A DNA stretch of 39,752 nt from Escherichia phage Ebrios: the sequence record MG966531, one strand, 5' to 3'. Positions 2,269-16,971 of the stretch are shown in pieces; positions within the stretch are counted from its first letter, which is position 1, and each line of letters opens with the position of its first letter. Made by a program: the position numbers and the translations under genes. A model generated the notes under the pieces. That model ran no database searches and had not been told where the DNA came from. It worked only from the letters and a program-made list of their open reading frames with translations.

Positions 2269-3387
2269 ATGAACGTTAACGCAATCTCCGCCCGTGTCTC
2301 TGAAATTGCTGCTCTAGGTATCTCTGAGTTGACCAAGCGTCAGCTTATGTTGGTGGAGCTGGTTGCCGACATTGTAAACCACGAAACGGAAAACGGCTAC
2401 TTGACCATGAAAGAAGGCAACCTTCCGCTCACTATGATGCCCTATTGGAACAGCCTGATGATTTACTTGGATGATGCGGGCTTTGAGCTGCTGGGCAATG
2501 GTCACTTTTCGGCTGCCTTTAAGCACCACCTTCTGCCGCAAAAGGTTATCAAGGTGGGATTCAAAAAGGAGGACTCTGGGGCCGCCTATGCCGCGTTCTG
2601 CCGCATGAACCAAGGCAAGCAGGGTATACCTACCATCCACAACATTCAACGCCACGCTGGCTGCTACACTGTTGTCCTTGACGAGCTGCGCCCACTGGTG
2701 ACAACCCTATGGGGAGACGTTGACGAGAACTACGAAGACGAAAACGTGGTTGACCAGTTCAACACTGTGCGCGGGATTATCTCTTGCAACGAGACCTTTG
2801 GCGGTGGCGCTGACCAGCTCCTTGATGCTTTAGCGGAAACCGCAAAGGAAATCCGCAAGTTCTTCGACGGTATCGCAAGTTTCGATATGCACTCAGGGAA
2901 CGCAATGGTTGACCACAACGGGCACGTTATCATCACTGACCCCGTGTCTTTCACTGACAAGGCCGTCGAACATTCTCGGGACGGCTTTATGATTGACCCT
3001 GAGGAACTGCTTAAGGAAATCGAACAGCTTGCTGAGCTGCGAATAATTGAGCGATGCCGTGAGCGCAAGGCTAAGCGTGACCCGAAGGGACAATTCCGGC
3101 TCGACCTCAAGCAGCGCCAAAAGCGCCGCAAGGAATACAAGAAGGCCGAGCGCTTTTGGAAACGGGACGCTGCCAAGCGGGCACTCAAGGCGCACAACAG
3201 AAACGTGGCCTTTAAAGAGCTGGGCAGCACTCTCTGGATGAAAGCCTACTTCAACCTCCCCGATGCAAAGATGGTCGAAATGGAGGCGCAAATTGCCGCC
3301 AAGGTCGCTAACCGCAACCACAAAGCAATTGCACTGGGTCAGGCTCTCGACATTGACAAAGAACTTGATGCAATGTTTCAAGGTTAA
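2269..3387 (+). CDS. 0.7: Gene 0.7 Ser/Thr protein kinase / host transcription shut-off protein
   Basis: 372 aa; conserved LGNGHFSAA...KVGFKKEDSGAAY..FCRM..G..GIP......RHAGCYTVVLD block as in T7 gp0.7. Confidence 0.9.
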   Translation: MNVNAISARVSEIAALGISELTKRQLMLVELVADIVNHETENGYLTMKEGNLPLTMMPYWNSLMIYLDDAGFELLGNGHFSAAFKHHLLPQKVIKVGFKKEDSGAAYAAFCRMNQGKQGIPTIHNIQRHAGCYTVVLDELRPLVTTLWGDVDENYEDENVVDQFNTVRGIISCNETFGGGADQLLDALAETAKEIRKFFDGIASFDMHSGNAMVDHNGHVIITDPVSFTDKAVEHSRDGFMIDPEELLKEIEQLAELRIIERCRERKAKRDPKGQFRLDLKQRQKRRKEYKKAERFWKRDAAKRALKAHNRNVAFKELGSTLWMKAYFNLPDAKMVEMEAQIAAKVANRNHKAIALGQALDIDKELDAMFQG

Positions 3388-3459: not shown

Positions 3460-6111
3460 ATGACTGTAATCGCAATCGAAAAGAACGACTTCTCCGACGT
3501 TGAGCTGGCTGTTATCCCGTTCAACACACTGGCAGACCACTACGGTGAGAAGCTGGCCCGCGAGCAGTTGGCACTTGAGCACGAAGCTTATGAAATGGGT
3601 GAGGCTCGTTTCCGCAAGATATTCGAGCGTCAGCTTAAGGCTGGTGAGGTTGCCGATAACGCTGCCGCTAAGCCGCTGGTCGCAACCCTGCTCCCCAAGA
3701 TGATTGAGCGAATCAACATTTGGTTCGAGGAGGTTTCCGCTAAGCGTGGCAAGCGCCCGACTGCCTTTAAGTTCCTGCAAGAGGTCAAGCCCGAGGCTAT
3801 CGCTTACATCACCATCAAGACCGTTCTGGGTGCTCTGACCAGTGCTGAGCAAACCACTGTGCAAGCCGCTGCGTCTGCTGTTGGTCGCGCCATTGAGGAC
3901 GAAGCCCGCTTTGGTCGCATCCGTGACCTTGAGGCTAAGCACTTCAAGAAGAACGTGGAGGAACAGCTCAACAAGCGCGTGGGCAACGTCTACAAGAAGG
4001 CTTTCCTGCAAGTGGTTGAGGCTGATATGCTGAGCAAGGGACTGATGGGTGGCGAAGCGTGGTCTAGCTGGCACAAAGAGGACTCCATTCATGTTGGTGT
4101 GCGTTGCATCGAAATGCTCATTGAGTCAACCGGTCTGGTCGTCCTTGAGCGTCAAAACGCTGGCGTTGTTGGCGCTGATGCTGAGACCCTGAGCCTTGCC
4201 TCTGAGTACGCTGACGCAATCGCCACCCGCGCTGGTGCTCTTGCTGGTATCTCCCCAATGTATCAACCTTGTGTAGTTCCGCCGAAGCCTTGGACAACCG
4301 TGACTGGCGGAGGCTACTGGGCTAACGGTCGTCGTCCGCTGGCTCTGGTGCGTACCCACGGCAAGAAGGCGCTGATGCGCTATGAGGACGTTTACATGCC
4401 TGAGGTTTACAAGGCGGTCAACCTTGCACAAGCCACCGCATGGAAAATCAACAAGAAGGTGCTGGCGGTAGCCAACGAGATTACCAAGTGGAAGCACTGC
4501 CCTGTTGAGGACATTCCGGCAATCGAGCGCGAGGAGTTGCCTGTTAAACCGGACGACATAGACGAGAACCCTGAGGCGCTGACCAACTGGAAACGCGCTG
4601 CTGCTGCTGTGTACCGCAAGGACAAGGCCCGCAAGTCTCGCCGTCTGTCCCTTGAGTTTATGCTTGAGCAGGCCAACAAGTTCGCAAACCACAAGGCCAT
4701 TTGGTTCCCTTACAACATGGACTGGCGTGGTCGCGTTTACGCGGTCTCCATGTTCAACCCGCAAGGCAACGATATGACCAAGGGCTTGCTGACTCTGGCT
4801 AAGGGCAAGGCAATCGGTAAGGAAGGTTTCTACTGGCTGAAAATCCACGGTGCAAACTGTGCTGGTGTCGATAAGGTTCCGTTCCCTGAGCGCATCAAGT
4901 TTATCGAAGACAACCACGAGCACATCATGGCGTCTGCTAAGAACCCGCTTGAGTACACTTGGTGGGCCGAACAGGATAGCCCGTTCTGCTTCCTTGCGTT
5001 CTGCTTTGAGTACGCTGGTGTGATGCACCACGGCTTGTCTTACAACTGCTCTCTGCCGCTGGCGTTCGATGGCTCCTGCTCTGGTATCCAGCACTTCTCC
5101 GCGATGCTGCGAGACGAAGTTGGTGGCCGTGCGGTGAACCTGCTCCCGAGCGAGACCGTGCAGGACATTTACGGCATCGTAGCCAAGAAGGTGAACGAAA
5201 TCCTGCAACGCGATGTTATCTCTGGCACCGATGACGAGTTGGTCACTGAAACCGACAAGACCACTGGGGAAATCACTGAGAAAACCGTACTGGGCACTCG
5301 CACTCTGGCGGGCCAGTGGCTGGCCTATGGGGTCAACCGTAGCGTGACCAAACGTTCCGTAATGACTCTGGCGTATGGCTCCAAGGAGTTCGGTTTCCGT
5401 CAGCAAGTCCTTGAGGACACTATCCGTCCGGCTATCGACTCCGGCAAGGGCCTGATGTTCACCATCCCGAACCAAGCGGCTGGCTACATGGCTAAGCTGA
5501 TTTGGGACTCTGTGAGTGTGACCGTGGTTGCTGCGGTAGAGGCCATGAAGTGGCTCCAAAGCGCCGCTAAACTGCTGGCCGCTGAGGTCAAGGACAAGAA
5601 GACTGGCGAGGTTCTGCGTAACCGCTGCGCTGTTCACTGGGTAACTCCCGATGGTTTCCCTGTGTGGCAGGAGTACCGCAAGCCGCTGCAAACCCGTCTG
5701 AACCTGATGTTCCTCGGTCAGTTCCGCTTGCAGCCAACCATCAACACCAACAAGGACTCTGGGATTGACGCGCACAAGCAGGAGTCGGGCATTGCGCCTA
5801 ACTTCGTTCACTCTCAGGACGGCTCTCACCTGCGCAAGACCGTAGTATGGGCTCACGAAAAGTACGGCATCGAGTCTTTCGCTCTGATTCACGACTCTTT
5901 CGGCACCATTCCGGCTGACGCTGGCAACCTGTTCAAGGCTGTGCGTGAGACAATGGTTGACACCTACGAGAACTGCGATGTTCTGGCTGACTTCTACGAG
6001 CAGTTTGCAGACCAGCTCCACGAGTCCCAACTGGACAAGATGCCTGCTCTGCCGAAGAAAGGTAACCTGAACCTGCGAGACATTCTTGAGTCTGACTTTG
6101 CATTCGCTTAA
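3460..6111 (+). CDS. 1: Gene 1, single-subunit DNA-dependent RNA polymerase of T7 specificity
   Basis: 883 aa, near-collinear with T7 RNAP as I remember it, including the C-terminal ...LRDILESDFAFA; the PTINTNKDS region matches T7 rather than T3, consistent with the CGACT promoters. Confidence 0.98.
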   Translation: MTVIAIEKNDFSDVELAVIPFNTLADHYGEKLAREQLALEHEAYEMGEARFRKIFERQLKAGEVADNAAAKPLVATLLPKMIERINIWFEEVSAKRGKRPTAFKFLQEVKPEAIAYITIKTVLGALTSAEQTTVQAAASAVGRAIEDEARFGRIRDLEAKHFKKNVEEQLNKRVGNVYKKAFLQVVEADMLSKGLMGGEAWSSWHKEDSIHVGVRCIEMLIESTGLVVLERQNAGVVGADAETLSLASEYADAIATRAGALAGISPMYQPCVVPPKPWTTVTGGGYWANGRRPLALVRTHGKKALMRYEDVYMPEVYKAVNLAQATAWKINKKVLAVANEITKWKHCPVEDIPAIEREELPVKPDDIDENPEALTNWKRAAAAVYRKDKARKSRRLSLEFMLEQANKFANHKAIWFPYNMDWRGRVYAVSMFNPQGNDMTKGLLTLAKGKAIGKEGFYWLKIHGANCAGVDKVPFPERIKFIEDNHEHIMASAKNPLEYTWWAEQDSPFCFLAFCFEYAGVMHHGLSYNCSLPLAFDGSCSGIQHFSAMLRDEVGGRAVNLLPSETVQDIYGIVAKKVNEILQRDVISGTDDELVTETDKTTGEITEKTVLGTRTLAGQWLAYGVNRSVTKRSVMTLAYGSKEFGFRQQVLEDTIRPAIDSGKGLMFTIPNQAAGYMAKLIWDSVSVTVVAAVEAMKWLQSAAKLLAAEVKDKKTGEVLRNRCAVHWVTPDGFPVWQEYRKPLQTRLNLMFLGQFRLQPTINTNKDSGIDAHKQESGIAPNFVHSQDGSHLRKTVVWAHEKYGIESFALIHDSFGTIPADAGNLFKAVRETMVDTYENCDVLADFYEQFADQLHESQLDKMPALPKKGNLNLRDILESDFAFA

Positions 6112-6131
6112 TACGACTCACTATAAGGAGC
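6109..6131 (+). promoter_or_regulatory. Phage promoter phi1.1A (variant, A at +1)
   Basis: TAATACGACTCACTATAAGGAGC, overlapping the gene 1 stop codon. Confidence 0.7.
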
Positions 6132-6146
6132 TCCCGATGGTGGTCT

Positions 6147-6169
6147 TAATACGACTCACTATTGGGAGA
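6147..6169 (+). promoter_or_regulatory. Phage promoter phi1.1B
   Basis: TAATACGACTCACTATTGGGAGACC; the same 25-mer recurs at 8135. Confidence 0.75.
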
Positions 6170-6259
6170 CCTTAAGGTTCTACTTTAAGACCCTTAAGAC
6201 TCTTACTTTAAGATTTAATTTAAGACCAAATTTAAGACTTACTCTAAGGAGACTTTAAG
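6165..6259 (+). other. AT-rich region downstream of phi1.1A/B; putative primary replication origin
   Basis: Runs of ttaag / tttaag repeats in an AT-rich stretch directly after the two promoters, where the T7 primary origin lies. Confidence 0.4.
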
Positions 6260-6382
6260 ATGCGTAACTTCGAGAAATTCACCAAGCGTTCTTCCCGCAA
6301 AGACTTCGCTGAGTTCGCCCAAGAGGGACGCAAGATGAACAAGGTCAAGCGTGACCGTTCTCACAAACGCAACTGGGCATAA
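6260..6382 (+). CDS. 1.1: Gene 1.1 small basic protein
   Basis: 40 aa, MRNFEKFTKRSSRKDF...KRDRSHKRNWA, close to T7 gp1.1; RBS TAAGGAG. Below the size cutoff of the ORF track. Confidence 0.75.
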   Translation: MRNFEKFTKRSSRKDFAEFAQEGRKMNKVKRDRSHKRNWA

Positions 6383-6392
6383 GGAGGTCTTT

Positions 6393-6632
6393 ATGGCACT
6401 CGATGTGATGTTCTTTGAGAACCGCCTCAATAAGCTGGCCGCCTACGCTAACAGCATTGGTCTGCGCCTCCGGTGGATGAACGAGCCGATGACCCTATCG
6501 CTGCGCGTGGGAATCTTTGAGCTAGGCTCTCAGGAGCCGCTTGCAGAGAAGACGTTCGAGTGGGGCGCTAGTAGCCTTGACGTAGAACGCTGGGTCGCCA
6601 CGGTCTGCAAGGACTACGCAAGCTGGAACTAA
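6393..6632 (+). CDS. 1.2: Gene 1.2-like protein (by position; possible host dGTPase inhibitor)
   Basis: 79 aa starting MALDVMFFENRLNKL; RBS AAGGAGG 6 nt upstream. The upstream extension from 6351 in the ORF track overlaps gene 1.1 and has no RBS. Confidence 0.65.
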   Translation: MALDVMFFENRLNKLAAYANSIGLRLRWMNEPMTLSLRVGIFELGSQEPLAEKTFEWGASSLDVERWVATVCKDYASWN

Positions 6633-6652
6633 TACGACTCACTATCGAGGAA
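6630..6652 (+). promoter_or_regulatory. Phage promoter phi1.3 (variant)
   Basis: TAATACGACTCACTATCGAGGAA, overlapping the gene 1.2 stop. Confidence 0.6.
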
Positions 6653-6654
6653 GA

Positions 6655-6700
6655 ATGCCCAAGGTCGCTCGCTGAGTGGCCTTCATCATTCTACTCAACA
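6655..6700 (+). promoter_or_regulatory. RNase III processing hairpin (R1.3-like)
   Basis: gcccaaggtcgctcgctgagtggccttcatcatt. Confidence 0.55.
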
Positions 6701-6720
6701 ACCTGCAAGGGAGAATCGTT

Positions 6721-7743
6721 ATGATGAACATCAAGACCAACCCATACAAAGCTGTGTCCTTCAACGAGAAATCCGTTGAGAAGGCGCTCAAGCGTTCGCA
6801 CTACCTGATTGCTGACATCAAGTATGATGGTGTGCGCGGGAACACTCTGGTCAAACCGTCTCAAGGTGCTTGCTGGCTCTCTCGGGTATCGAAACCGATT
6901 CCGGCGATTGAGCACCTGAACGATGGCGCTGCCCGTTGGGACAACCTGCTCAAGGACAACCGCTGCATGTTCCCGACTGGCTTTATGCTCGATGGCGAGC
7001 TGATGGTTGACGGTGTGGATTTCAACACTGGCTCCGGCCTGCTGCGAACCAAGTGGCTAGACTCCAAGAATCAGGAGTTCCATAATGAGTTCCTGCCGCG
7101 CAATGTCAAGAAGTCCGAGAAGATTCCGTTCCGTCTGGACGCTGGCCTGCTCAAGGTCGTAATTTACGCTGTGCTCCCGATTGAAGTGGTGGAGTCCGGC
7201 GATGACTATCCGGTCAAGAACCTGCTGATGCAGGAACACGTCAAGAACATGCTGCCTCTGCTCCGCGCTCACTTCCCTGAGATTAGCTGGCAAGCGGCTG
7301 AGTCCCATGAGGTGTACGATATGACCGAACTGTCTGCACTGTACGAAATGAAACGCGAGGAGGGTCACGAAGGTCTCATTGTGAAAGACCCGAGCGACAT
7401 CTACAAGCGCGGCAAGAAGTCTGGGTGGTACAAACTTAAGCCGGAACAAGAGGCTGACGGCATCATCCAAGGCGTCAACTGGGGAACAAAGGGCTTAGCC
7501 AACGAGGGCAAGGTAATCGGCTTTAGTGTGCTTCTTGAGTCTGGCCGTCTGGTAGATGCCAACAACGTCTCACGCGTGCTGATGGACGAGTTCACCGCCA
7601 ACGTTAAGGAGCACGGTGCGGACTATTACAACGGCTGGCAGTGCCAGATTGCCTATATGGAGGAGACCAAAGATGGCTCACTGCGTCACCCGTCTTTCAG
7701 TTGCTTCCGAGGAACTGAGGACAATCCAACAGAGAAGATATAA
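6721..7743 (+). CDS. 1.3: Gene 1.3 ATP-dependent DNA ligase
   Basis: Starts MMNIKTNPYKAVSF; active-site lysine motif IADIKYDGVRG; ends ...SLRHPSF..FRGTEDNP.EK as T7 ligase does. Confidence 0.95.
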   Translation: MMNIKTNPYKAVSFNEKSVEKALKRSHYLIADIKYDGVRGNTLVKPSQGACWLSRVSKPIPAIEHLNDGAARWDNLLKDNRCMFPTGFMLDGELMVDGVDFNTGSGLLRTKWLDSKNQEFHNEFLPRNVKKSEKIPFRLDAGLLKVVIYAVLPIEVVESGDDYPVKNLLMQEHVKNMLPLLRAHFPEISWQAAESHEVYDMTELSALYEMKREEGHEGLIVKDPSDIYKRGKKSGWYKLKPEQEADGIIQGVNWGTKGLANEGKVIGFSVLLESGRLVDANNVSRVLMDEFTANVKEHGADYYNGWQCQIAYMEETKDGSLRHPSFSCFRGTEDNPTEKI

Positions 7744-8137
7744 GCTAGACCCTGCGGCTCCTTCCGGAGTCGCTTCTTCCAAAGGTAAGCCGATTGGCTC
7801 ACGAAGAAAGGATGGCTACTGGGTTCTGTCCTGTGGTGGCAAGCACATCCTTGCGCATAGGGTAGTCTGGGTGCTTCACAATGGGCCAATACCTGATGGC
7901 TTGGTCATTGACCACATCAACAGGAATCCTAGTGACAACCGGATAGAGAACCTACGATGCGTACCGCAATCGGTGAACCTTGCGAACGTCAGTGTTCGGC
8001 CACATTGTAAGAGCGGCGAGAAGTACATTGCGTTCGATAGTAGAACTGGTCGATTCACTGTGAGAATCAGGCGGGTTAACCACGGAACCTTCGCCACTCT
8101 TGAGGAGGCGATAGCGAAGCGCGACTCTGTGATGTAA
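7673..8137 (+). CDS. HNH homing endonuclease with C-terminal AP2-like DNA-binding domain
   Basis: HNH motif HRVVWVLHNGPIPDGLVIDHINRNPSDNRIENLR....N and C-terminal GEKYIAFDSRTGRFTVRIRRVNHGTFATLEEA. ATG at 7673 has RBS GGAGGAG; the open frame extends up to the GTG at 7616, so the exact start is uncertain. Confidence 0.8.
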   Translation: MAHCVTRLSVASEELRTIQQRRYKLDPAAPSGVASSKGKPIGSRRKDGYWVLSCGGKHILAHRVVWVLHNGPIPDGLVIDHINRNPSDNRIENLRCVPQSVNLANVSVRPHCKSGEKYIAFDSRTGRFTVRIRRVNHGTFATLEEAIAKRDSVM

Positions 8138-8157
8138 TACGACTCACTATTGGGAGA
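8135..8157 (+). promoter_or_regulatory. Phage promoter, exact duplicate of the phi1.1B 25-mer
   Basis: TAATACGACTCACTATTGGGAGACC, overlapping the HNH stop codon. Confidence 0.7.
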
Positions 8158-8162
8158 CCATT

Positions 8163-8199
8163 GGCCTGCACCTCCTGAGGGTGTGGGCCTTTGTAGTTT
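8163..8199 (+). terminator. Early intrinsic terminator (TE-like) for host RNAP
   Basis: GGCCTGCACC/GGTGTGGGCC stem with 7-nt loop, then a T-rich tract TTTGTAGTTT; resembles the T7 TE hairpin CACCTTCGGGTGGGCCTTT. Confidence 0.6.
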
Positions 8200-8226
8200 C
8201 TACAAGACTCACTAAAGGAGGCCATT

Positions 8227-8478
8227 ATGCTGATGAACAACTACCTGACCAATCCGGCTCACCCGCTGAGCCCTCTGAATCCAATCAGCCCAATTAGCAT
8301 TTGGAATCAAGGATGCTCGCGAGAGGAGACCGTTGAGGTAGTCTCGCAACGCCAACACCGCGAGCTTGACCCTAAAGAGAAACTGGTACTGGGTGCTGGG
8401 TTCGGTGTCTGCCTTGCTCTGCTGCTGACCCTTGTGCTGGTTATGGTGTTCGGAGAGATTGGCCGACCGCGCCACTAA
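8227..8478 (+). CDS. Hypothetical small protein with C-terminal transmembrane helix (gene 1.4/1.5 position)
   Basis: 83 aa; RBS AAAGGAGG; Pro-rich N-terminus and hydrophobic stretch LVLGAGFGVCLALLLTLVLVMVFG. Not recognised. Confidence 0.55.
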   Translation: MLMNNYLTNPAHPLSPLNPISPISIWNQGCSREETVEVVSQRQHRELDPKEKLVLGAGFGVCLALLLTLVLVMVFGEIGRPRH

Positions 8479-8498
8479 TACGACTCACTAAAGGAGAC
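8476..8498 (+). promoter_or_regulatory. Phage promoter phi1.6-type (CACTAAAGGAG class II variant)
   Basis: TAATACGACTCACTAAAGGAGAC. Confidence 0.75.
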
Positions 8499-8502
8499 CA
8501 CT

Positions 8503-8769
8503 ATGAAATTCAAGCTGCATTACCATAAGCTGTTCAAGCACTTTACCGTTCGCCGCTCCGATACCCGAGCAATCGTGTTCACCACCGAGCGCCGCTTTGC
8601 CATTCCGCTGATTGGCCAGACTGTTGAGCTGGCCCCGAAGGTTCACGTAATCATCACCCGTGGCAAATTCCAAGAAGCAACCAACAAGACCCGTCCGGTT
8701 CTTAACGTGGCAGTGACCCGTTTCCCGTTCGTCAAGTTGCTGATTGAGCGCGTCAAGGAGGTGTTGTAA
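8503..8769 (+). CDS. 1.6: Gene 1.6 protein (unknown function)
   Basis: 88 aa, same length and position as T7 gp1.6; RBS AAAGGAGA. Confidence 0.65.
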
Positions 8770-9125
8770 TGGGACACTACGATTGCCATAAATGTGGAGA
8801 ATACCTGTGCCTTGGTGATTGCGATGTGCCTGTTGTAGTAAACGAGAAGGCCGTTGCTGTAGGGCCGAGCAAGCAAGCACCTAAGCAAATCGAAGGCGTC
8901 CAGAAGCCGTCCCACTATTACCTGTTCGATGACATCGAGGTCATTGAGGTAATCGCCCGTAGCATGACCCGCGAGCAATTCAAGGGCTATGTCCTTGGGA
9001 ACATCCTCAAGTACCGCCTGAGGGCAGGTAAGAAGGGCGAACTGGCCTACCTTGAGAAGGACATGGCGAAAGCCGAGTTCTATGAGACCCTTTACGAACA
9101 ACACAAAGGGAAATGCTATGCGTAA
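8769..9125 (+). CDS. 1.7: Gene 1.7 nucleoside-monophosphate (dGMP/dTMP) kinase, short form
   Basis: C-terminal half ...[73 protein letters not shown] matches T7 gp1.7; 118 aa versus about 196 in T7. Confidence 0.85.
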   Translation: MGHYDCHKCGEYLCLGDCDVPVVVNEKAVAVGPSKQAPKQIEGVQKPSHYYLFDDIEVIEVIARSMTREQFKGYVLGNILKYRLRAGKKGELAYLEKDMAKAEFYETLYEQHKGKCYA

Positions 9126-14051: not shown

Positions 14052-14074
14052 TTATTCGACTCACTAATGGAGGT
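14052..14074 (+). promoter_or_regulatory. Degenerate phage promoter (phi4.7 position)
   Basis: TTATTCGACTCACTAATGGAGGT: core GACTCACTA retained, upstream TAATAC altered to TTATTC. Confidence 0.4.
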
Positions 14075-14081
14075 AGACACT

Positions 14082-14510
14082 ATGCGTAGCCAATTCGTAA
14101 TCGAAGCCGAGATTGCCAAACTGCAAGCTGAACTAGAAGACGTTAAGGCCCACGAATCGAAAGTCATTGCGGCTGCCCACATCCTGACCAACCTTGGCTG
14201 GACTTGGACTCGCAAAGACGGCTGGAAGAAACCGGTAGCTCCGATTAAGCCTACCGTGTTCGACAAGGACACCATGACCCACATCAAGAAGGGCGACTTC
14301 TGCCTGTACGCTAAGGGAACAGTTCTGGAAGGCTTTGTGCTTGTCCGTGAAGTGAACGGTGCCGAATGCACTGTATCCTATGTGTCCAGTATCGCAGAGT
14401 TCAACCGTCCGGTTGTCGCTACGTTGAAATTCCGTTGTCATGCAAACATGCTAAAGGTTGTCTCTAGCCAGACACTTGTTGACTGCATGAAGAACAACAT
14501 GGTTATTTAA
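14082..14510 (+). CDS. 4.7: Gene 4.7 protein
   Basis: 142 aa from the ATG at 14082 with RBS GGAGG; the ATG at 14067 lies inside the promoter core and has no RBS. Confidence 0.7.
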   Translation: MRSQFVIEAEIAKLQAELEDVKAHESKVIAAAHILTNLGWTWTRKDGWKKPVAPIKPTVFDKDTMTHIKKGDFCLYAKGTVLEGFVLVREVNGAECTVSYVSSIAEFNRPVVATLKFRCHANMLKVVSSQTLVDCMKNNMVI

Positions 14511-14529: not shown

Positions 14530-16644
14530 ATGCTCGTTTCAGACATCGAAGCTGATGCACTCTTGGACAAAGTTACTAAGTTCCACTGTGGTGTAATCTA
14601 TGACTATCGCACAGACGAATACGTCAGTTACCGCCCTAAGGACTTCGCTGCGTACCTTGATGCGCTTGAAGCGGAGGTTGCACGAGGCGGGCTGATTGTG
14701 TTCCATAATGGTCACAAGTATGACGCTCCGGCTCTTGAGAAGCTGGCTAAGCTGGTGCTTGACCGTGAGTTCCACATCCCCAGAGAGAACTGCATCGACA
14801 CTCTCGTTATGTCTCGCCTGATTCACTCGAACCTCAAGGACACCGATATGGGCCTCCTGCGCTCCGGTAAACTGCCGGGCAAACGCTACGGTTCCCACGC
14901 TCTGGAAGCATGGGGCTACCGCTTAGGCGTAATGAAGGGTGAGTACAAGGACGACTTCAAGGCTGCTCTTGAGGAGCAAGGCGAGGAGTACGTTGAGGGC
15001 ATGGAGTGGCGCTCATTCAACGAGGACATGATGGCCTATAACGTTCAGGACGTTGTGGTCACTAAGGCACTCCTTGAGAAGCTGCTTTCCGACAAGCACT
15101 ACTTCAAGCCTGAGATTGACTTCACGGATGTCTCTGCGGATACCTTCTGGATGGAAGCTATTGAGGCGATTGACGTGGAGCACAGAGCCGCTTGGTTGCT
15201 CGCTAAGCAGGAGCGCAATGGCTACCCGTTCAACACCAAGGCTATCGAAGACCTGTACGTTGAGCTGGCCTCTCGCCGCTCTGAGCTGCTGATGCGCCTG
15301 ACTGATACCTTCGGCTCTTGGTATCAGCCAAAGGGCGGAACCGAAATGTTCCTACACCCGCGCACTGGTCAGCCGCTCCCGAAGTATCCGCGAGTGAAGA
15401 CCCCGAAGGTAGGTGGTATCTTCAAGAAGCCCAAGAACAAAGCCCAACGTGAAGGCCGTGAGCCCTGTGAGCTGGACACTCGGGACTTCGTTGCTGGTGC
15501 AGTTTACACTCCGGTGGAGCACGTAGTCTTCAACCCTTCGTCCCGTGACCACATCCAGAAGAAGCTCCAAGAGGCTGGCTGGGTTCCCGAGAAGTTCACC
15601 GATAAGGGTGCTCCGGTAGTGGACGACGAGGTGCTTGAAGGCGTTGTTGTGGATGACCCCGAGAAGCAAGCCGCTATAGACCTCATTAAGGAGTACCTGA
15701 TGATTCAGAAGCGAATCGGTCAGAGTGCTGAGGGCGACAAAGCGTGGCTGCGCTACGTTGCGGAGGACGGTAAGATTCATGGTAGTGTTAACCCGAACGG
15801 TGCGGTTACTGGCCGTGCCACTCACGCCTTCCCGAACCTTGCGCAAATACCTGGGGTTCGGTCTCCGTATGGCGAACAATGTCGTGCTGCATTCGGGGCT
15901 GAACACCATCTGGATTACGTCACTGGGGAACCTTGGGTTCAAGCTGGTATTGACGCATCTGGTCTGGAGCTGCGCTGCTTGGCCCACTTCATGGCTCGAT
16001 TCGACAACGGCGAGTATGCCCACGAGATTCTGAACGGCGACATTCACACCAAGAACCAGTTGGCTGCCGAGCTGCCGACCCGAGACAACGCCAAGACCTT
16101 CATCTATGGTTTCCTCTATGGGGCCGGAGACGAGAAGATTGGTCAGATTGTTGGTGCTGGTAAGGAACGCGGTAAGGAGCTCAAGAAGAAATTCCTTGAG
16201 AATACCCCTGCGATTGCTGCGCTCCGTGAGTCCATCCAATCGACTCTCGTTGAGAGTTCCCACTGGGTGGCTGGTGAGCAGCAAGTCAAGTGGAAGCGCC
16301 GCTGGATTAAGGGCATGGATGGTCGTAAGGTTCACGTCCGTAGCCCACACGCTGCGCTGAACACTGTGCTGCAATCCGCTGGTGCGCTTATCTGCAAACT
16401 GTGGATTATCAAGACCGAGGAAATGCTCATTGAGAAAGGCTACAAGCACGGCTGGGATGGAGACTTTGCGTATATGGCTTGGGTTCACGACGAAATCCAA
16501 GTGGCCTGCCGCACTGAGGAAATCGCCAAGGCAGTCATTGATACCGCCCAAGAGGCTATGCGCTGGGTAGGTGAGCATTGGAACTTCCGTTGCCTTCTGG
16601 ACACCGAAGGTAAGATTGGCCCGAACTGGGCTGTGTGCCACTAA
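14530..16644 (+). CDS. 5: Gene 5 DNA polymerase (family A, with 3'-5' exonuclease)
   Basis: 704 aa, same as T7 gp5; N-terminus M.VSDIEA.ALL..VTKFHCGVIYDY...EYVSYRP.DF.AYLDALEAEVARGGLIVFHNGHKYD matches. Confidence 0.98.
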   Translation: MLVSDIEADALLDKVTKFHCGVIYDYRTDEYVSYRPKDFAAYLDALEAEVARGGLIVFHNGHKYDAPALEKLAKLVLDREFHIPRENCIDTLVMSRLIHSNLKDTDMGLLRSGKLPGKRYGSHALEAWGYRLGVMKGEYKDDFKAALEEQGEEYVEGMEWRSFNEDMMAYNVQDVVVTKALLEKLLSDKHYFKPEIDFTDVSADTFWMEAIEAIDVEHRAAWLLAKQERNGYPFNTKAIEDLYVELASRRSELLMRLTDTFGSWYQPKGGTEMFLHPRTGQPLPKYPRVKTPKVGGIFKKPKNKAQREGREPCELDTRDFVAGAVYTPVEHVVFNPSSRDHIQKKLQEAGWVPEKFTDKGAPVVDDEVLEGVVVDDPEKQAAIDLIKEYLMIQKRIGQSAEGDKAWLRYVAEDGKIHGSVNPNGAVTGRATHAFPNLAQIPGVRSPYGEQCRAAFGAEHHLDYVTGEPWVQAGIDASGLELRCLAHFMARFDNGEYAHEILNGDIHTKNQLAAELPTRDNAKTFIYGFLYGAGDEKIGQIVGAGKERGKELKKKFLENTPAIAALRESIQSTLVESSHWVAGEQQVKWKRRWIKGMDGRKVHVRSPHAALNTVLQSAGALICKLWIIKTEEMLIEKGYKHGWDGDFAYMAWVHDEIQVACRTEEIAKAVIDTAQEAMRWVGEHWNFRCLLDTEGKIGPNWAVCH

Positions 16645-16664
16645 TACGACTCACTAAAGGAGGC
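16642..16664 (+). promoter_or_regulatory. Phage promoter upstream of gene 5.5 (class II CACTAAAGGAGG type)
   Basis: TAATACGACTCACTAAAGGAGGCC, overlapping the gene 5 stop; the same leader CACTAAAGGAGGCCATTATG recurs at 8210-8229. Confidence 0.75.
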
Positions 16665-16668
16665 CATT

Positions 16669-16971
16669 ATGGCTATGACCAAACGATACAAAGTAACCTT
16701 CGAGATTACCGCGAAGCTGACCACCAAGGATGTGGACGAGTTCACCAAGGGTCTTATTGAGACCTCCCGCAAAATCGTTGAAGGTAAACCCGTTAATCCA
16801 GAACTTCGTGCTTGCGTAATGGCTGCCCTTGAGGGAGGCGTTGAGGCCGCTGTTGAGTGCGCCTATCGCCGTGGTGTCCGTGAACTGATTCGCGATGCCT
16901 ACAACGAAATGTGCAGCGAGGAACGCGCAGCCACTAAGTTCTCACCAGCAACCGTGGAGGTGTTGAAATGA
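16669..16971 (+). CDS. 5.5: Gene 5.5 protein (H-NS-binding in T7)
   Basis: 100 aa starting MAMTKRYKVTFEITAKL, resembling my recollection of T7 gp5.5; RBS AAAGGAGG. Confidence 0.7.
   Translation: MAMTKRYKVTFEITAKLTTKDVDEFTKGLIETSRKIVEGKPVNPELRACVMAALEGGVEAAVECAYRRGVRELIRDAYNEMCSEERAATKFSPATVEVLK

What the first reader, a model, noticed from the sequence alone, without database searches (positions are those of the whole stretch)
8200..8478. Unknown small membrane protein in the 1.4/1.5 slot, preceded by a promoter-decayed copy of the gene 5.5 leader
An 83-aa ORF with a Pro-rich N-terminus and a C-terminal hydrophobic helix lies directly after the TE terminator. Its upstream sequence GACTCACTAAAGGAGGCCATTATG is the same promoter-core plus leader plus start module found in front of gene 5.5 at 16648-16671, but here the TAATAC recognition element has decayed to CTACAA. 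This looks like a translation-initiation cassette copied by recombination, with the promoter part then lost.
Basis: seen in the sequence. Interest (0 to 1): 0.5.

Follow-up and report, generated by a model that had tools for sequence, protein, structure and literature searches.

The report
Orphan membrane gene with hybrid leader
A real but function-unknown small membrane-protein gene of the T7-like coliphage Ebrios sits behind a dead promoter stub, and that stub-plus-leader arose when a neighbouring gene was deleted between two promoter repeats; it is not a copy of the gene 5.5 leader.

Summary
The window is Escherichia phage Ebrios. The ORF at 8227-8478 is its ORF10, which the 2018 genome note called unique.

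**Observation: correct.** There is an 83-aa ORF after a TE-like terminator. A 24-nt exact match lies at 8206-8229 and 16648-16671. CTACAA stands where TAATAC should be.

**The gene looks real.**
- It has seven near-identical relatives and one 45%-identical relative, in the same slot wherever the context could be read.
- dN/dS is 0.25-0.33.
- It has a strong ribosome-binding site.
- It has a confident C-terminal transmembrane helix and a conserved (Pro-x-x)5 stretch.

**The "copy of the 5.5 leader" reading is not supported.**
- The dead stub (TTCTACAAGACTCACTAAAGGAG) sits after TE in every relative examined, in front of three different genes.
- Contig L012 is collinear with Ebrios at 94% identity. 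It carries an extra 119-aa gene there, followed by the ORF's own near-consensus promoter.
- Ebrios equals L012 minus 386 bp, between two exact 15-nt repeats (GACTCACTAAAGGAG).
- The perfect match to the 5.5 leader therefore comes from the shared class II promoter/leader convention plus one base.

Published T7 promoter-variant data predict about 1% activity for the stub. Transcription most likely comes from the promoter at 8135.

Overall this is ordinary T7-group plasticity around an uncharacterised accessory gene.

The parts
8135..8157 (+). T7-type promoter TAATACGACTCACTATTGGGAGA, predicted +1 at G8152. It overlaps the stop codon of the upstream HNH gene. It is the likely proximal promoter for the ORF.
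   Evidence: One mismatch to the consensus. It is conserved at this position in IME15, avDM11-UST, KFSA9, L005, L009 and L012. The -1 A>T variant kept 43% activity in vitro in Komura et al. 2018, S2 File.
8163..8199 (+). TE-like intrinsic terminator for host RNA polymerase: hairpin 8163-8189 plus T-rich tail. It would also form the 5' stem of the transcript from the 8135 promoter.
   Evidence: 11-pair stem with 7 GC pairs and tail TTTGTAGTTT. It occupies the same position as annotated TE of T7. In the RNA fold of 8152-8260, nt 2-50 form the stem and the Shine-Dalgarno region is unpaired in the centroid structure. The overall energy is no better than shuffled sequence, z = -0.54.
8200..8222 (+). 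Hybrid pseudo-promoter. -17..-12 is CTACAA, where the promoters of this genome have TAATAC. -11..+4 is the intact class II core GACTCACTAAAGGAG.
   Evidence: The dead upstream half is shared by all relatives. The core has further decayed in KFSA9 (GGCCAACTAAAGGAG) and L009 (GACTCACTTGAGGAG), while GGAG is invariant. The -14C/-12A double mutant alone gave about 2% of wild-type T7 RNAP activity.
8206..8220 (+). Single retained copy of the 15-nt direct repeat GACTCACTAAAGGAG, which is the deletion junction.
   Evidence: BLAST of L012 and L005 against the window gives left and right alignments that overlap exactly on 8206-8220. In L012 the two repeat copies lie 386 bp apart. Three-way junction alignment is A5.
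8217..8221 (+). Shine-Dalgarno GGAGG, 5 nt upstream of the ATG.
   Evidence: Read from the sequence. GGAG is invariant in all seven orthologous elements.
8227..8478 (+). Gene B = Ebrios ORF10 (ebrios_10, YP_009799388.1), an 83-aa predicted single-pass membrane protein.
   Evidence: Nine family members were found. dN/dS is 0.25-0.33. Synteny holds in L005, L009 and L012.
8254..8298 (+). Residues 10-24, PAHPLSPLNPISPIS: a (Pro-hydrophobic-polar)5 stretch, inferred to form an amphipathic polyproline-II segment.
   Evidence: Prolines at 10, 13, 16, 19 and 22. The period of 3 is kept in the 45%-identical homologue P0009, with prolines at 10, 13, 19, 22 and 25. AlphaFold2 gives no confident fold here.
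8383..8454 (+). Residues 53-76, LVLGAGFGVCLALLLTLVLVMVFG: the transmembrane helix, with a conserved G-x-G-x-G motif at its start.
   Evidence: Kyte-Doolittle maximum 2.72. AlphaFold2 helix 49-79 with pLDDT up to 94. Nearly invariant in the family.
8476..8498 (+). phi1.6-type promoter TAATACGACTCACTAAAGGAGAC. It overlaps the ORF's stop codon and forms the right-hand boundary of the cassette.
   Evidence: It lies in front of gene 1.6, which matches phrog_1777 at E = 7.5e-35.
16642..16671 (+). Promoter and leader in front of gene 5.5, the sequence the finding compared against.
   Evidence: It is identical, with its flanks, in IME15 and KFSA9, so it is ancestral at that site. Gene 5.5 matches phrog_1452.

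Best explanation
The ORF at 8227-8478 is a genuine, non-essential accessory gene of a small clade of T7-like phages, called 'gene B' here. It encodes a single-pass membrane protein. Residues 1-31 are uncharged and carry a (Pro-x-x)5 stretch. Residues 32-52 form a charged linker. Residues ~53-76 form a C-terminal transmembrane helix.

It lies in a tandem array of mini-cassettes between TE and gene 1.6, each led by a promoter. The fullest relative, L009, has this order: TE, dead promoter stub, gene A (119 aa), promoter, gene B, phi1.5, gene 1.5 (27 aa), phi1.6, gene 1.6.

Every unit begins with the same class II core GACTCACTAAAGGAG, so units are lost (or gained) by recombination or slippage between these direct repeats. 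In the Ebrios lineage a 386-bp unit was deleted. That unit held gene A plus the upstream half of gene B's own promoter. The deletion fused the long-dead post-TE stub (CTACAA) to gene B's own leader (GGAGG(A>C)CATTATG).

The result resembles a decayed copy of the 5.5 leader only because all class II promoter/leader modules of this phage share the core and an R-CC-N-Y-TATG type leader.

Shown:
- the repeat-bounded indel
- the orthology of the stub
- conservation and purifying selection on the gene
- the hydrophobic helix

Inferred:
- The stub is essentially inactive as a promoter (about 1% of consensus) and works as a ribosome-binding site.
- Gene B is transcribed by the phage RNA polymerase from the promoter at 8135 (+1 at 8152) and by read-through from upstream promoters, as a middle (class II) gene. 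Host-polymerase transcripts stop at TE.
- The protein is tail-anchored, with its N-terminus in the cytoplasm, where the proline stretch would bind a host or phage partner at the membrane.
For: Identity of the window: the cluster look-up names the protein 'hypothetical protein ebrios_10 [Escherichia phage Ebrios]' on a 39,752-bp contig. The genome note says 'ORF10 appears to be unique to phage Ebrios' (PMC6013611).

The gene is real:
- Seven 83-aa relatives at 89-93% identity.
- One 84-aa homologue, P0009, at E = 1.1e-11 and 45% identity. It keeps the Pxx periodicity, the ET(V/I)..V.Q motif and the G-x-G-x-GV..ALL.TLVL helix.
- dN/dS of 0.25, 0.27 and 0.33 in three pairs, with 12 of 23 differences at third codon positions.
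- GGAGG lies 5 nt before the ATG.

Synteny and the array: L005, L012 and L009 all carry gene A then gene B after TE, and L009 also has gp1.5 behind an intact phi1.5.

The deletion:
- L012 1-3292 matches window 4926-8220 at 94.2%.
- L012 3664-4166 matches window 8206-8708 at 94.2%.
- The overlap is the 15-nt repeat, and the repeat copies are 386 bp apart.
- Alignment A5 shows the window element equals the L012 left flank plus the L012 right flank.

The stub is ancient and not selected as a promoter: alignment A3 and searches show it in every relative. The core is mutated in KFSA9 and L009, while the promoters in the same loci stay at or near consensus.

Predicted promoter activity, from Komura et al. 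2018 S2 File (wild type about 169):
- TAACAAGACTCACTATAGG: 4.1 and 3.0
- -14C alone: 24.7
- -16T: 114.5
- -17C with -2A: 116

Multiplied together, these give roughly 1% for CTACAAGACTCACTAAAGG. Ebrios RNA polymerase is 90% identical to T7's. The base-contacting residues N748, R756 and Q758 are kept, with three substitutions elsewhere in the specificity loop and one (K93S) in the AT-rich loop.

The 5.5 leader is ancestral at its own site. Leaders of unrelated class II promoters already match at 7-8 of 9 positions.

The helix is supported.
Against: - Direction of the event is inferred by parsimony only. Gene A-B adjacency is seen in both deep branches of the B family. The reverse reaction, integration of a circular gene-A unit at the 15-nt core, would give the same junctions.
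- The genomic contexts of five of the nine family members (P0003-P0007) could not be retrieved.
- The single base that makes the match to the 5.5 leader perfect (C8222) could be a point change or a short conversion tract from the 5.5 leader. The data cannot tell which.
- Promoter inactivity is extrapolated from T7 RNAP in vitro data on single and double mutants, not measured on this sequence or with this polymerase.
- There is no direct evidence of transcription, translation, membrane insertion, topology or any function. Counting flanking charges only weakly favours N-in (4 K+R before the helix versus 2 after; 2 versus 2 in P0009).
- The RNA fold of the 5' UTR is no more stable than shuffled sequence.
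Confidence: 0.72

Rival explanations
1. One reading: the promoter + leader + start module of gene 5.5 was copied in front of this ORF by recombination. Its TAATAC recognition element then decayed to CTACAA by point mutation.
For: There is a 24/24 identity between 8206-8229 and 16648-16671. The 5.5 module is conserved and could act as a donor. Window base C8222 matches the 5.5 leader, whereas L005 and L012 have A.
Against: - CTACAA and the core are orthologous to the post-TE element of all relatives, in front of other genes.
- The leader and first codons match gene B's own leader in L005 and L012.
- No 5.5-specific flank is shared on either side of the 24 nt.
- The phi1.6 leader, 250 bp away, differs by only 2 of 24 bases.
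Confidence: 0.05
2. Insertion rather than deletion. The Ebrios arrangement (stub directly in front of gene B) is ancestral. Gene A, carrying the upstream half of a promoter, was inserted into the 15-nt core in other lineages, for example through a circular intermediate as described for T4-type PeSL mini-circles.
For: The junctions are symmetric, so the reverse reaction gives the same structure. Gene A is rare and has only distant relatives, in unrelated large phages. That fits a mobile unit. PeSL mini-circles are documented in PMC2839356.
Against: - Gene A precedes gene B in L005, L012 and L009, whose gene B is only 45% identical. The A-B pairing is therefore at least as old as the split of the B family.
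- Ebrios gene B nests within the 83-aa subgroup that has gene A.
- The promoter in front of gene B, GTAATTACGACTCACTAAAGGAGG, is identical in L005, L009 and L012.
Confidence: 0.15
3. The stub is still a working weak promoter, kept to give gene B (or whichever gene is first after TE) a low, separately timed transcript.
For: The -11..+4 core, which holds the most critical contacts, is intact in 5 of 7 genomes. Komura's data show about 2% residual activity for the -14C/-12A double mutant, so activity is not zero.
Against: - Two lineages have mutated critical core positions without losing the downstream gene. KFSA9 is changed at -10, -8 and -7, and L009 at -3 and -2.
- A promoter that kept 43% of consensus activity in vitro sits only 65 bp upstream and would swamp any such signal.
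- At 94% overall identity, conservation of 15 nt carries little information.
Confidence: 0.08
4. The ORF is not a functional gene. It would be a chance open frame or a decaying remnant.
For: It has no Pfam, PHROG, PADLOC or PDB match. It is absent from IME15-type relatives. The N-terminus is of low complexity. The antisense frame is also open.
Against: - The frame, length and start are intact in nine sequences, down to 45% identity.
- dN/dS is 0.25-0.33.
- It has an optimal SD spacing, and its own conserved promoter in relatives.
- Every protein-coding gene identified here lies on the + strand, and no phage promoter faces leftward.
Confidence: 0.03

Closest known systems
T7 genes 1.4 and 1.5 with promoter phi1.5 (the TE-to-gene-1.6 interval of phage T7)
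   Same: The genomic slot is the same: after ligase and TE, before phi1.6 and gene 1.6. It likewise holds tiny hydrophobic proteins of unknown function, each with a class II promoter whose AAAGGAG doubles as the Shine-Dalgarno. Relatives of Ebrios keep a true gp1.5 homologue, MALIFAFVAVLLWVALTASDDHDNHAI, against T7's ...LALHCSDDDMPDGHA.
   Different: Gene B is not homologous to gp1.4 (hhalign probability 0.6%). It has no evident resemblance to gp1.5, which was compared by eye only. It is longer, has its transmembrane helix at the C-terminus, and carries a proline-repeat N-terminus. Ebrios has lost gene 1.5 altogether.
Deletions between short direct repeats in T7 DNA (Studier et al. 1979; Kong & Masker 1994, PMC196806; both as cited in PMC5630979)
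   Same: An exact short direct repeat (15 nt) flanks the missing segment in the undeleted relative. One copy remains in the deleted genome, and the flanks are collinear.
   Different: Here it is a natural difference between wild phages, inferred by comparison and not observed in the laboratory. The repeats are promoter cores, so the event rewires transcription signals.
[quoted passage not shown]
   Same: Repeated regulatory motifs bracket small non-essential orphan genes in a hyperplastic region and serve as the recombination points for gene gain, loss and replacement.
   Different: The repeats here are phage-RNA-polymerase promoters of 15-23 nt, with no stem-loop attached to each unit. They are not sigma-70 promoters. 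No mini-circles were looked for. This is a resemblance in how it works, not membership.

Membership tests
Functional T7-type (class II) promoter | Upstream AT-rich recognition element, TAATA at -17..-13, and C at -12 | tested here: not met
   The window has CTACAA, mismatched at -17, -16, -14 and -12. In Komura 2018 S2 File, -14C alone gave 15% and -14C/-12A gave about 2% of wild type.
Functional T7-type (class II) promoter | Specificity-loop contacts at -11..-5 (GACTCAC) and initiation region TAAAGGAG | tested here: met
   8206-8220 is identical to the core of phi1.6 and of the 5.5 promoter.
Functional T7-type (class II) promoter | Conserved as a promoter among relatives | tested here: not met
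   No relative has TAATAC here. KFSA9 and L009 carry extra changes at critical core positions, while the neighbouring promoters stay at or within two bases of consensus.
Functional T7-type (class II) promoter | Initiation by the phage RNA polymerase at the predicted +1 (G8217) | not testable with these tools
   This needs in vitro transcription or 5'-end mapping.
Copy of the gene 5.5 promoter/leader module | Shared sequence beyond what all class II promoter/leaders share, or shared flanks | tested here: not met
   Identity stops at both ends of the 24 nt. The phi1.6 leader is 22/24 identical. Leaders of unrelated genes match at 7-8 of 9 positions.
Copy of the gene 5.5 promoter/leader module | Absence of the module at this locus in relatives (i.e. 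a derived insertion) | tested here: not met
   Both halves are present at this locus in relatives. The stub is in all seven, and the leader is in L005 and L012.
Deletion between direct repeats | Two exact repeat copies flank the segment in the undeleted genome, one copy remains in the deleted genome, and the flanks are collinear | tested here: met
   In L012 the repeat GACTCACTAAAGGAG lies at 3278-3292 and 3664-3678. The window has one copy at 8206-8220. The flanks are 94.2% identical on both sides.
Deletion between direct repeats | Polarity: the longer form is ancestral | tested here: inconclusive
   Parsimony favours it, because A-B adjacency is seen in both B subfamilies. Five family members could not be placed in a genomic context.
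T7 gp1.4 / gp1.5 protein families | Detectable sequence homology | tested here: not met
   hhalign against gp1.4 gives probability 0.6%. gp1.5 was compared by eye only. There is no PHROG hit, although gene 1.6 and gene 5.5 hit theirs.
Single-pass (tail-anchored) membrane protein | One hydrophobic segment of about 20 residues near the C-terminus, predicted helical, with no N-terminal signal peptide | tested here: met
   Kyte-Doolittle maximum 2.72 at residues 57-75. AlphaFold2 helix 49-79 with pLDDT 78-94. The only weak database hits are to transmembrane helices. The N-terminus has no hydrophobic stretch.
Single-pass (tail-anchored) membrane protein | Membrane insertion and N-in/C-out topology | not testable with these tools
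   Only a charge count is available: 4 K+R before the helix versus 2 after in Ebrios, and 2 versus 2 in P0009. It needs fusion-reporter or protease-accessibility experiments.
PeSL-type mobile regulatory cassette (T4-type phages) | Composite sigma-70 early promoter plus terminator stem-loop repeated between orphan genes | tested here: not met
   The repeats here are phage-polymerase promoter cores. Only one stem-loop (TE) is present in the array.

The most novel reading that the evidence does not exclude
Gene B, with its usual partner gene A, is a previously unrecognised accessory module of T7-like phages. Its membrane-anchored protein would use an amphipathic polyproline-II (Pro-hydrophobic-polar)5 arm to bind a host envelope or defence component. 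Its far higher protein divergence than its neighbour in the same genome pair (45% versus 89% identity) would reflect an arms race. More generally, class II promoter cores would act in T7-like phages as the recombination joints of a hyperplastic cassette array, the counterpart of T4 PeSLs.
Probability: 0.15. Interest if true: 0.55.

Novelty: new member of a known kind. Interest (0 to 1): 0.3.

Why it matters
- It corrects a published statement. ORF10 is not unique to Ebrios. It belongs to a small, conserved family found only in a few T7-like phages.
- It gives a clean natural example of how identical promoter cores in T7-like genomes act as break-and-join points. These add, remove or re-lead small accessory genes, and leave hybrid signals that look like decayed copies.
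- For annotation, a promoter-like core with a good Shine-Dalgarno should not be read as a promoter, or as a paralogous copy, without comparing relatives.
- For biology, it nominates an orphan membrane protein with an unusual conserved proline repeat for functional testing. The mechanism of the rearrangement itself is already textbook for T7.

Tried and rejected
**Searches for the ORF that found nothing**
- tblastn of the ORF and of P0009 against 50,697 GenBank phage records gave no match. Ebrios itself did not appear in this search either.
- Pfam gave only sub-threshold transmembrane-like noise. PHROGs gave nothing below E = 0.08. PADLOC gave nothing. PDB sequences gave only non-significant matches to receptor transmembrane helices. 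Rfam gave nothing over 7600-9000.
- IMG/VR, JGI metagenome contigs and GTDB genome contigs hold no relatives.
- The 1.84-billion representative search added only P0009 and a spurious repeat protein, P0010.

**Steps that failed or were skipped**
- Fold search was not run. Only the transmembrane helix of the AlphaFold2 model is confident (mean pLDDT 61).

**Ideas rejected**
- Homology to T7 gp1.4.
- The antisense 87-aa ORF at 8212-8475. It is open in relatives too, but 12 of the 23 base differences fall at third positions of the sense frame, all genes run rightward and no promoter faces it.
- A foreign-composition argument. The ORF has GC 0.55 and GC3 0.62, within the range of its neighbours.
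Full report
**What the window is.** The window carries 16 matches to the T7 promoter consensus, all on the + strand. It has a T7-like gene order. An exact-sequence cluster look-up names the ORF product 'hypothetical protein ebrios_10 [Escherichia phage Ebrios]', on a contig of 39,752 bp, which is the window's length. The Ebrios genome announcement (PMC6013611) states that the phage is related to Stenotrophomonas phage IME15. It also states that 'ORF10 appears to be unique to phage Ebrios'.

**Checking the observation.**
- The ORF is 8227-8478, 83 aa.
- A terminator-like hairpin at 8163-8189 with a T-rich tail lies just upstream. It is in the position of T7's annotated TE.
- GACTCACTAAAGGAGGCCATTATG occurs exactly at 8206-8229 and 16648-16671, against none expected by chance.
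- The phi1.6 leader at 8482-8505 differs by only two bases.
- At -17..-12 the element reads CTACAA where the promoters of this genome read TAATAC.
- The protein has a strongly hydrophobic stretch, with a Kyte-Doolittle maximum of 2.72 at residues 57-75.
- AlphaFold2, run on a 3-sequence alignment, predicts a confident helix only at 49-79. The N-terminal half has pLDDT below 50.
- Prolines occur at residues 10, 13, 16, 19 and 22.

**Is the gene real?**
- The 5.8-billion-protein search found one cluster of eight 83-aa sequences, one of them Ebrios's own protein, so seven relatives at 89-93% identity.
- A profile search of 1.84 billion representatives added one 84-aa homologue, P0009 (E = 1.1e-11, 45% identity). 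It keeps the three-residue proline periodicity, a central ET(V/I)..V.Q motif, and the G-x-G-x-GV..ALL.TLVL helix.
- Nei-Gojobori estimates for three pairs give dN/dS of 0.25-0.33, with about as many synonymous as non-synonymous differences.
- GGAGG lies 5 nt before the ATG.
- Nothing matches in Pfam, PHROGs, PADLOC, PDB, IMG/VR, JGI metagenomes, GTDB genomes or 50,697 GenBank phages.
- The conclusion is a genuine but rare orphan family. The published 'unique' label is outdated.

**What lies at this locus in relatives.** Each arrangement below starts after the ligase stop, a promoter (TAAT[A/T]CGACTCACTATTGGGAG) and TE.

| Genome(s) | Element after TE | Genes that follow |
|---|---|---|
| IME15, avDM11-UST, KFSA9 | CTACAAGACTCACTAAAGGAGAACCATCATG (KFSA9's copy is further decayed) | Unannotated 27-aa ORF (MALIFAFVAVLLWVALTASDDHDNHAI), a clear homologue of T7 gp1.5; then phi1.6 and gene 1.6 |
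| L005, L012 | Same stub | 119-aa gene A; then GTAATTACGACTCACTAAAGGAGGACATTATG and gene B; then phi1.6 |
| L009 (contig from a 39.9-kb phage) | CTGTAAGACTCACTTGAGGAG | Gene A; TAATTAC promoter and gene B; intact phi1.5 (TAATACGACTCACTAAAGGAGAACCACTATG) and gp1.5; phi1.6 and gene 1.6 |
| Ebrios (window) | CTACAAGACTCACTAAAGGAGGCCATTATG | Gene B; then phi1.6 and gene 1.6 |

Alignment A3 shows that the sequence from the promoter through TE to ...AAAGGAG is orthologous in all of them. Homology ends right after GGAG.

**How the Ebrios element arose.** L012 is collinear with the window at 94.2% identity on both sides:
- L012 1-3292 matches window 4926-8220, including the HNH gene.
- L012 3664-4166 matches window 8206-8708.

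The two alignments overlap on window 8206-8220. That stretch is the 15-nt sequence GACTCACTAAAGGAG, which occurs twice in L012, 386 bp apart. Alignment A5 shows the window element is the left flank of L012's first copy joined to the right flank of its second.

This is the signature of a deletion between direct repeats, a process long documented in T7 (Studier et al. 1979; Kong & Masker 1994, as cited in PMC5630979). The deletion removed gene A and the upstream half of gene B's own promoter.

The polarity rests on parsimony. Gene A precedes gene B in both deep branches of the B family, and Ebrios's B nests in the subgroup that has A. The reverse event, insertion of a circular gene-A unit, cannot be excluded, and I give it about 0.15.

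The other arrangements fit the same logic. IME15-type genomes lack A and B, and L005 and L012 lack gene 1.5. Gene 1.5 knock-outs arise repeatedly in evolved T7 and T3 lines (PMC2696425), which fits its dispensability.

**Why it looks like the 5.5 leader.** The promoter and leader before gene 5.5 are identical, flanks included, in IME15 and KFSA9, so they are ancestral at that site. All class II modules here share the core and a similar leader:

| Module | Bases after GGAG |
|---|---|
| phi1.6, window | ACCACTATG |
| phi1.6, L009 | GCCGCTATG |
| gene B, L005/L012 | GACATTATG |
| gene 5.5 | GCCATTATG |

 A single base (C8222, A in L005 and L012) turns a 23/24 match into 24/24. No sequence outside the 24 nt is shared. 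The 'copied from 5.5, then decayed' model is therefore not supported. The dead upstream half is older than the junction, not younger.

**Is the stub a promoter?**
- No relative has TAATAC at this site.
- Two lineages have mutated critical core positions while keeping GGAG. The element therefore seems to be kept as a ribosome-binding site, not as a promoter.
- Ebrios RNA polymerase is 90% identical to T7's. It keeps the base-contacting residues N748, R756 and Q758. The rest of the specificity loop has three substitutions and the AT-rich loop one, K93S. T7 data should therefore transfer.

Komura et al. 2018 (PMC5937735, S2 File; wild type about 169 RNA/DNA reads) report:

| Variant | Activity |
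|---|---|
| -14C | 24.7 |
| -14C/-12A | 4.1 and 3.0 |
| -16T | 114.5 |
| -17C with -2A | 116 |
| -2A | 137.7 |
| -1T (as in the 8135 promoter) | 73.3 |

Multiplying these gives roughly 1% of consensus for the stub. This is an extrapolation, not a measurement.

The promoter at 8135-8157 would start transcription at G8152, 75 nt before the ATG. The predicted 5' UTR folds its first 50 nt into the TE stem and leaves the Shine-Dalgarno free, although the fold is no better than shuffled controls. It is established for T7 that host-polymerase transcripts end at TE. From that I infer that gene B is a phage-polymerase-dependent middle gene.

**What the protein may do.**
- Shown: a conserved C-terminal hydrophobic helix with a G-x-G-x-G start; an uncharged 31-residue N-terminus with a conserved (Pro-hydrophobic-polar) repeat of period 3; and a charged linker.
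- Inferred: a tail-anchored inner-membrane protein, N-terminus cytoplasmic. The charge count favours this only weakly. Its proline stretch would form an amphipathic polyproline-II arm for protein binding.
- In the same genome pair (L005 versus L009), gene B is 45% identical at the protein level while gene A is 89% identical. Either gene B evolves much faster, or alleles are swapped as cassettes.
- It is dispensable, since IME15-type relatives lack it.
- I commit to 'accessory membrane-anchored binding protein acting at the inner membrane during the middle phase' as the most likely role, with low confidence in any specific target.

**Comparison with known systems, and verdict.**
- The slot equals T7's 1.4/1.5 interval, but the protein is not homologous to gp1.4. 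By eye it does not resemble gp1.5 either.
- The rearrangement is a standard direct-repeat deletion.
- The array behaves like T4-type PeSL cassettes (PMC2839356) without being one.
- Verdict: this is a new member of known kinds. It is a tidy and instructive case with an untested orphan protein, but it would not surprise a T7 specialist.

Noticed in passing
window 7616-8137 (+); L009 3130-3520; L012 2815-3205: An HNH homing-endonuclease gene (Pfam HNH_3, E = 1.4e-21; phrog_99) lies between the ligase gene and the promoter/TE. It overlaps the ligase 3' end in another frame. Its stop codon overlaps the promoter, just as the ligase stop does in IME15, which lacks the gene. The gene is intact in L012. 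In L009 it carries an in-frame TAG (GAG>TAG), so it is a pseudogene there.
   Followed up: partly
L001 1598-1681 (IME15); L002 1599-1682 (avDM11-UST); L003 1917-2000 (KFSA9); L009 4281-4364: A 27-aa homologue of T7 gp1.5 (MALIFAF[V/I]AVL[L/F]WVALTASDDHDNHAI) is present but not annotated in the GenBank records of IME15, avDM11-UST and KFSA9. Ebrios, L005 and L012 have lost it.
   Followed up: yes
window 8135-8199: A near-consensus phage promoter sits immediately upstream of the host-polymerase terminator TE, so its transcript begins with the terminator hairpin. T7 has no promoter at this position. The arrangement is conserved across the whole IME15/Ebrios clade.
   Followed up: partly
L005 520-879; L012 3300-3659; L009 3612-3971: Gene A (119 aa, MTKQTVSLKGIQTVRNEV...) is the usual upstream partner of gene B. 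It has no Pfam hit and a weak match to phrog_6273 (unknown function). It has only about 33% identical relatives, in large Escherichia and Campylobacter phages. It is absent from Ebrios.
   Followed up: partly
window 8771-8881: The 5' part of the gene 1.7 homologue (8769-9125, a 118-aa nucleotide kinase) does not align with IME15, L005 or L009, although both flanks do at 92-96% identity. The Ebrios protein has a different, Cys-rich N-terminus ([19 protein letters not shown]...) and is 16 aa longer than the 102-aa version in relatives. This is a second small mosaic replacement, 300 bp downstream of the finding.
   Followed up: no
window 7411-7595 versus L005 1-185: The 3' part of the ligase gene is only 74% identical between Ebrios and L005. 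Against L009 and L012 it is 94% identical, and against IME15 the ligase region is about 91% identical. This points to mosaic exchange within the ligase gene among these phages.
   Followed up: no
window 14052-14085: Another class II-like module with an imperfect upstream half, TTATTCGACTCACTAATGGAGGTAGACACTATG, has a promoter core that runs into a Shine-Dalgarno and a start codon. By the Komura data its two upstream changes (-16T, -13T) are mild, so it is probably still an active promoter.
   Followed up: no
window 8212-8475 (-): An 87-aa antisense ORF spans the whole of gene B. The same antisense frame is open in L005 and L009 too. It is most likely a by-product of codon composition, since no leftward promoter exists in the window.
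   Followed up: partly
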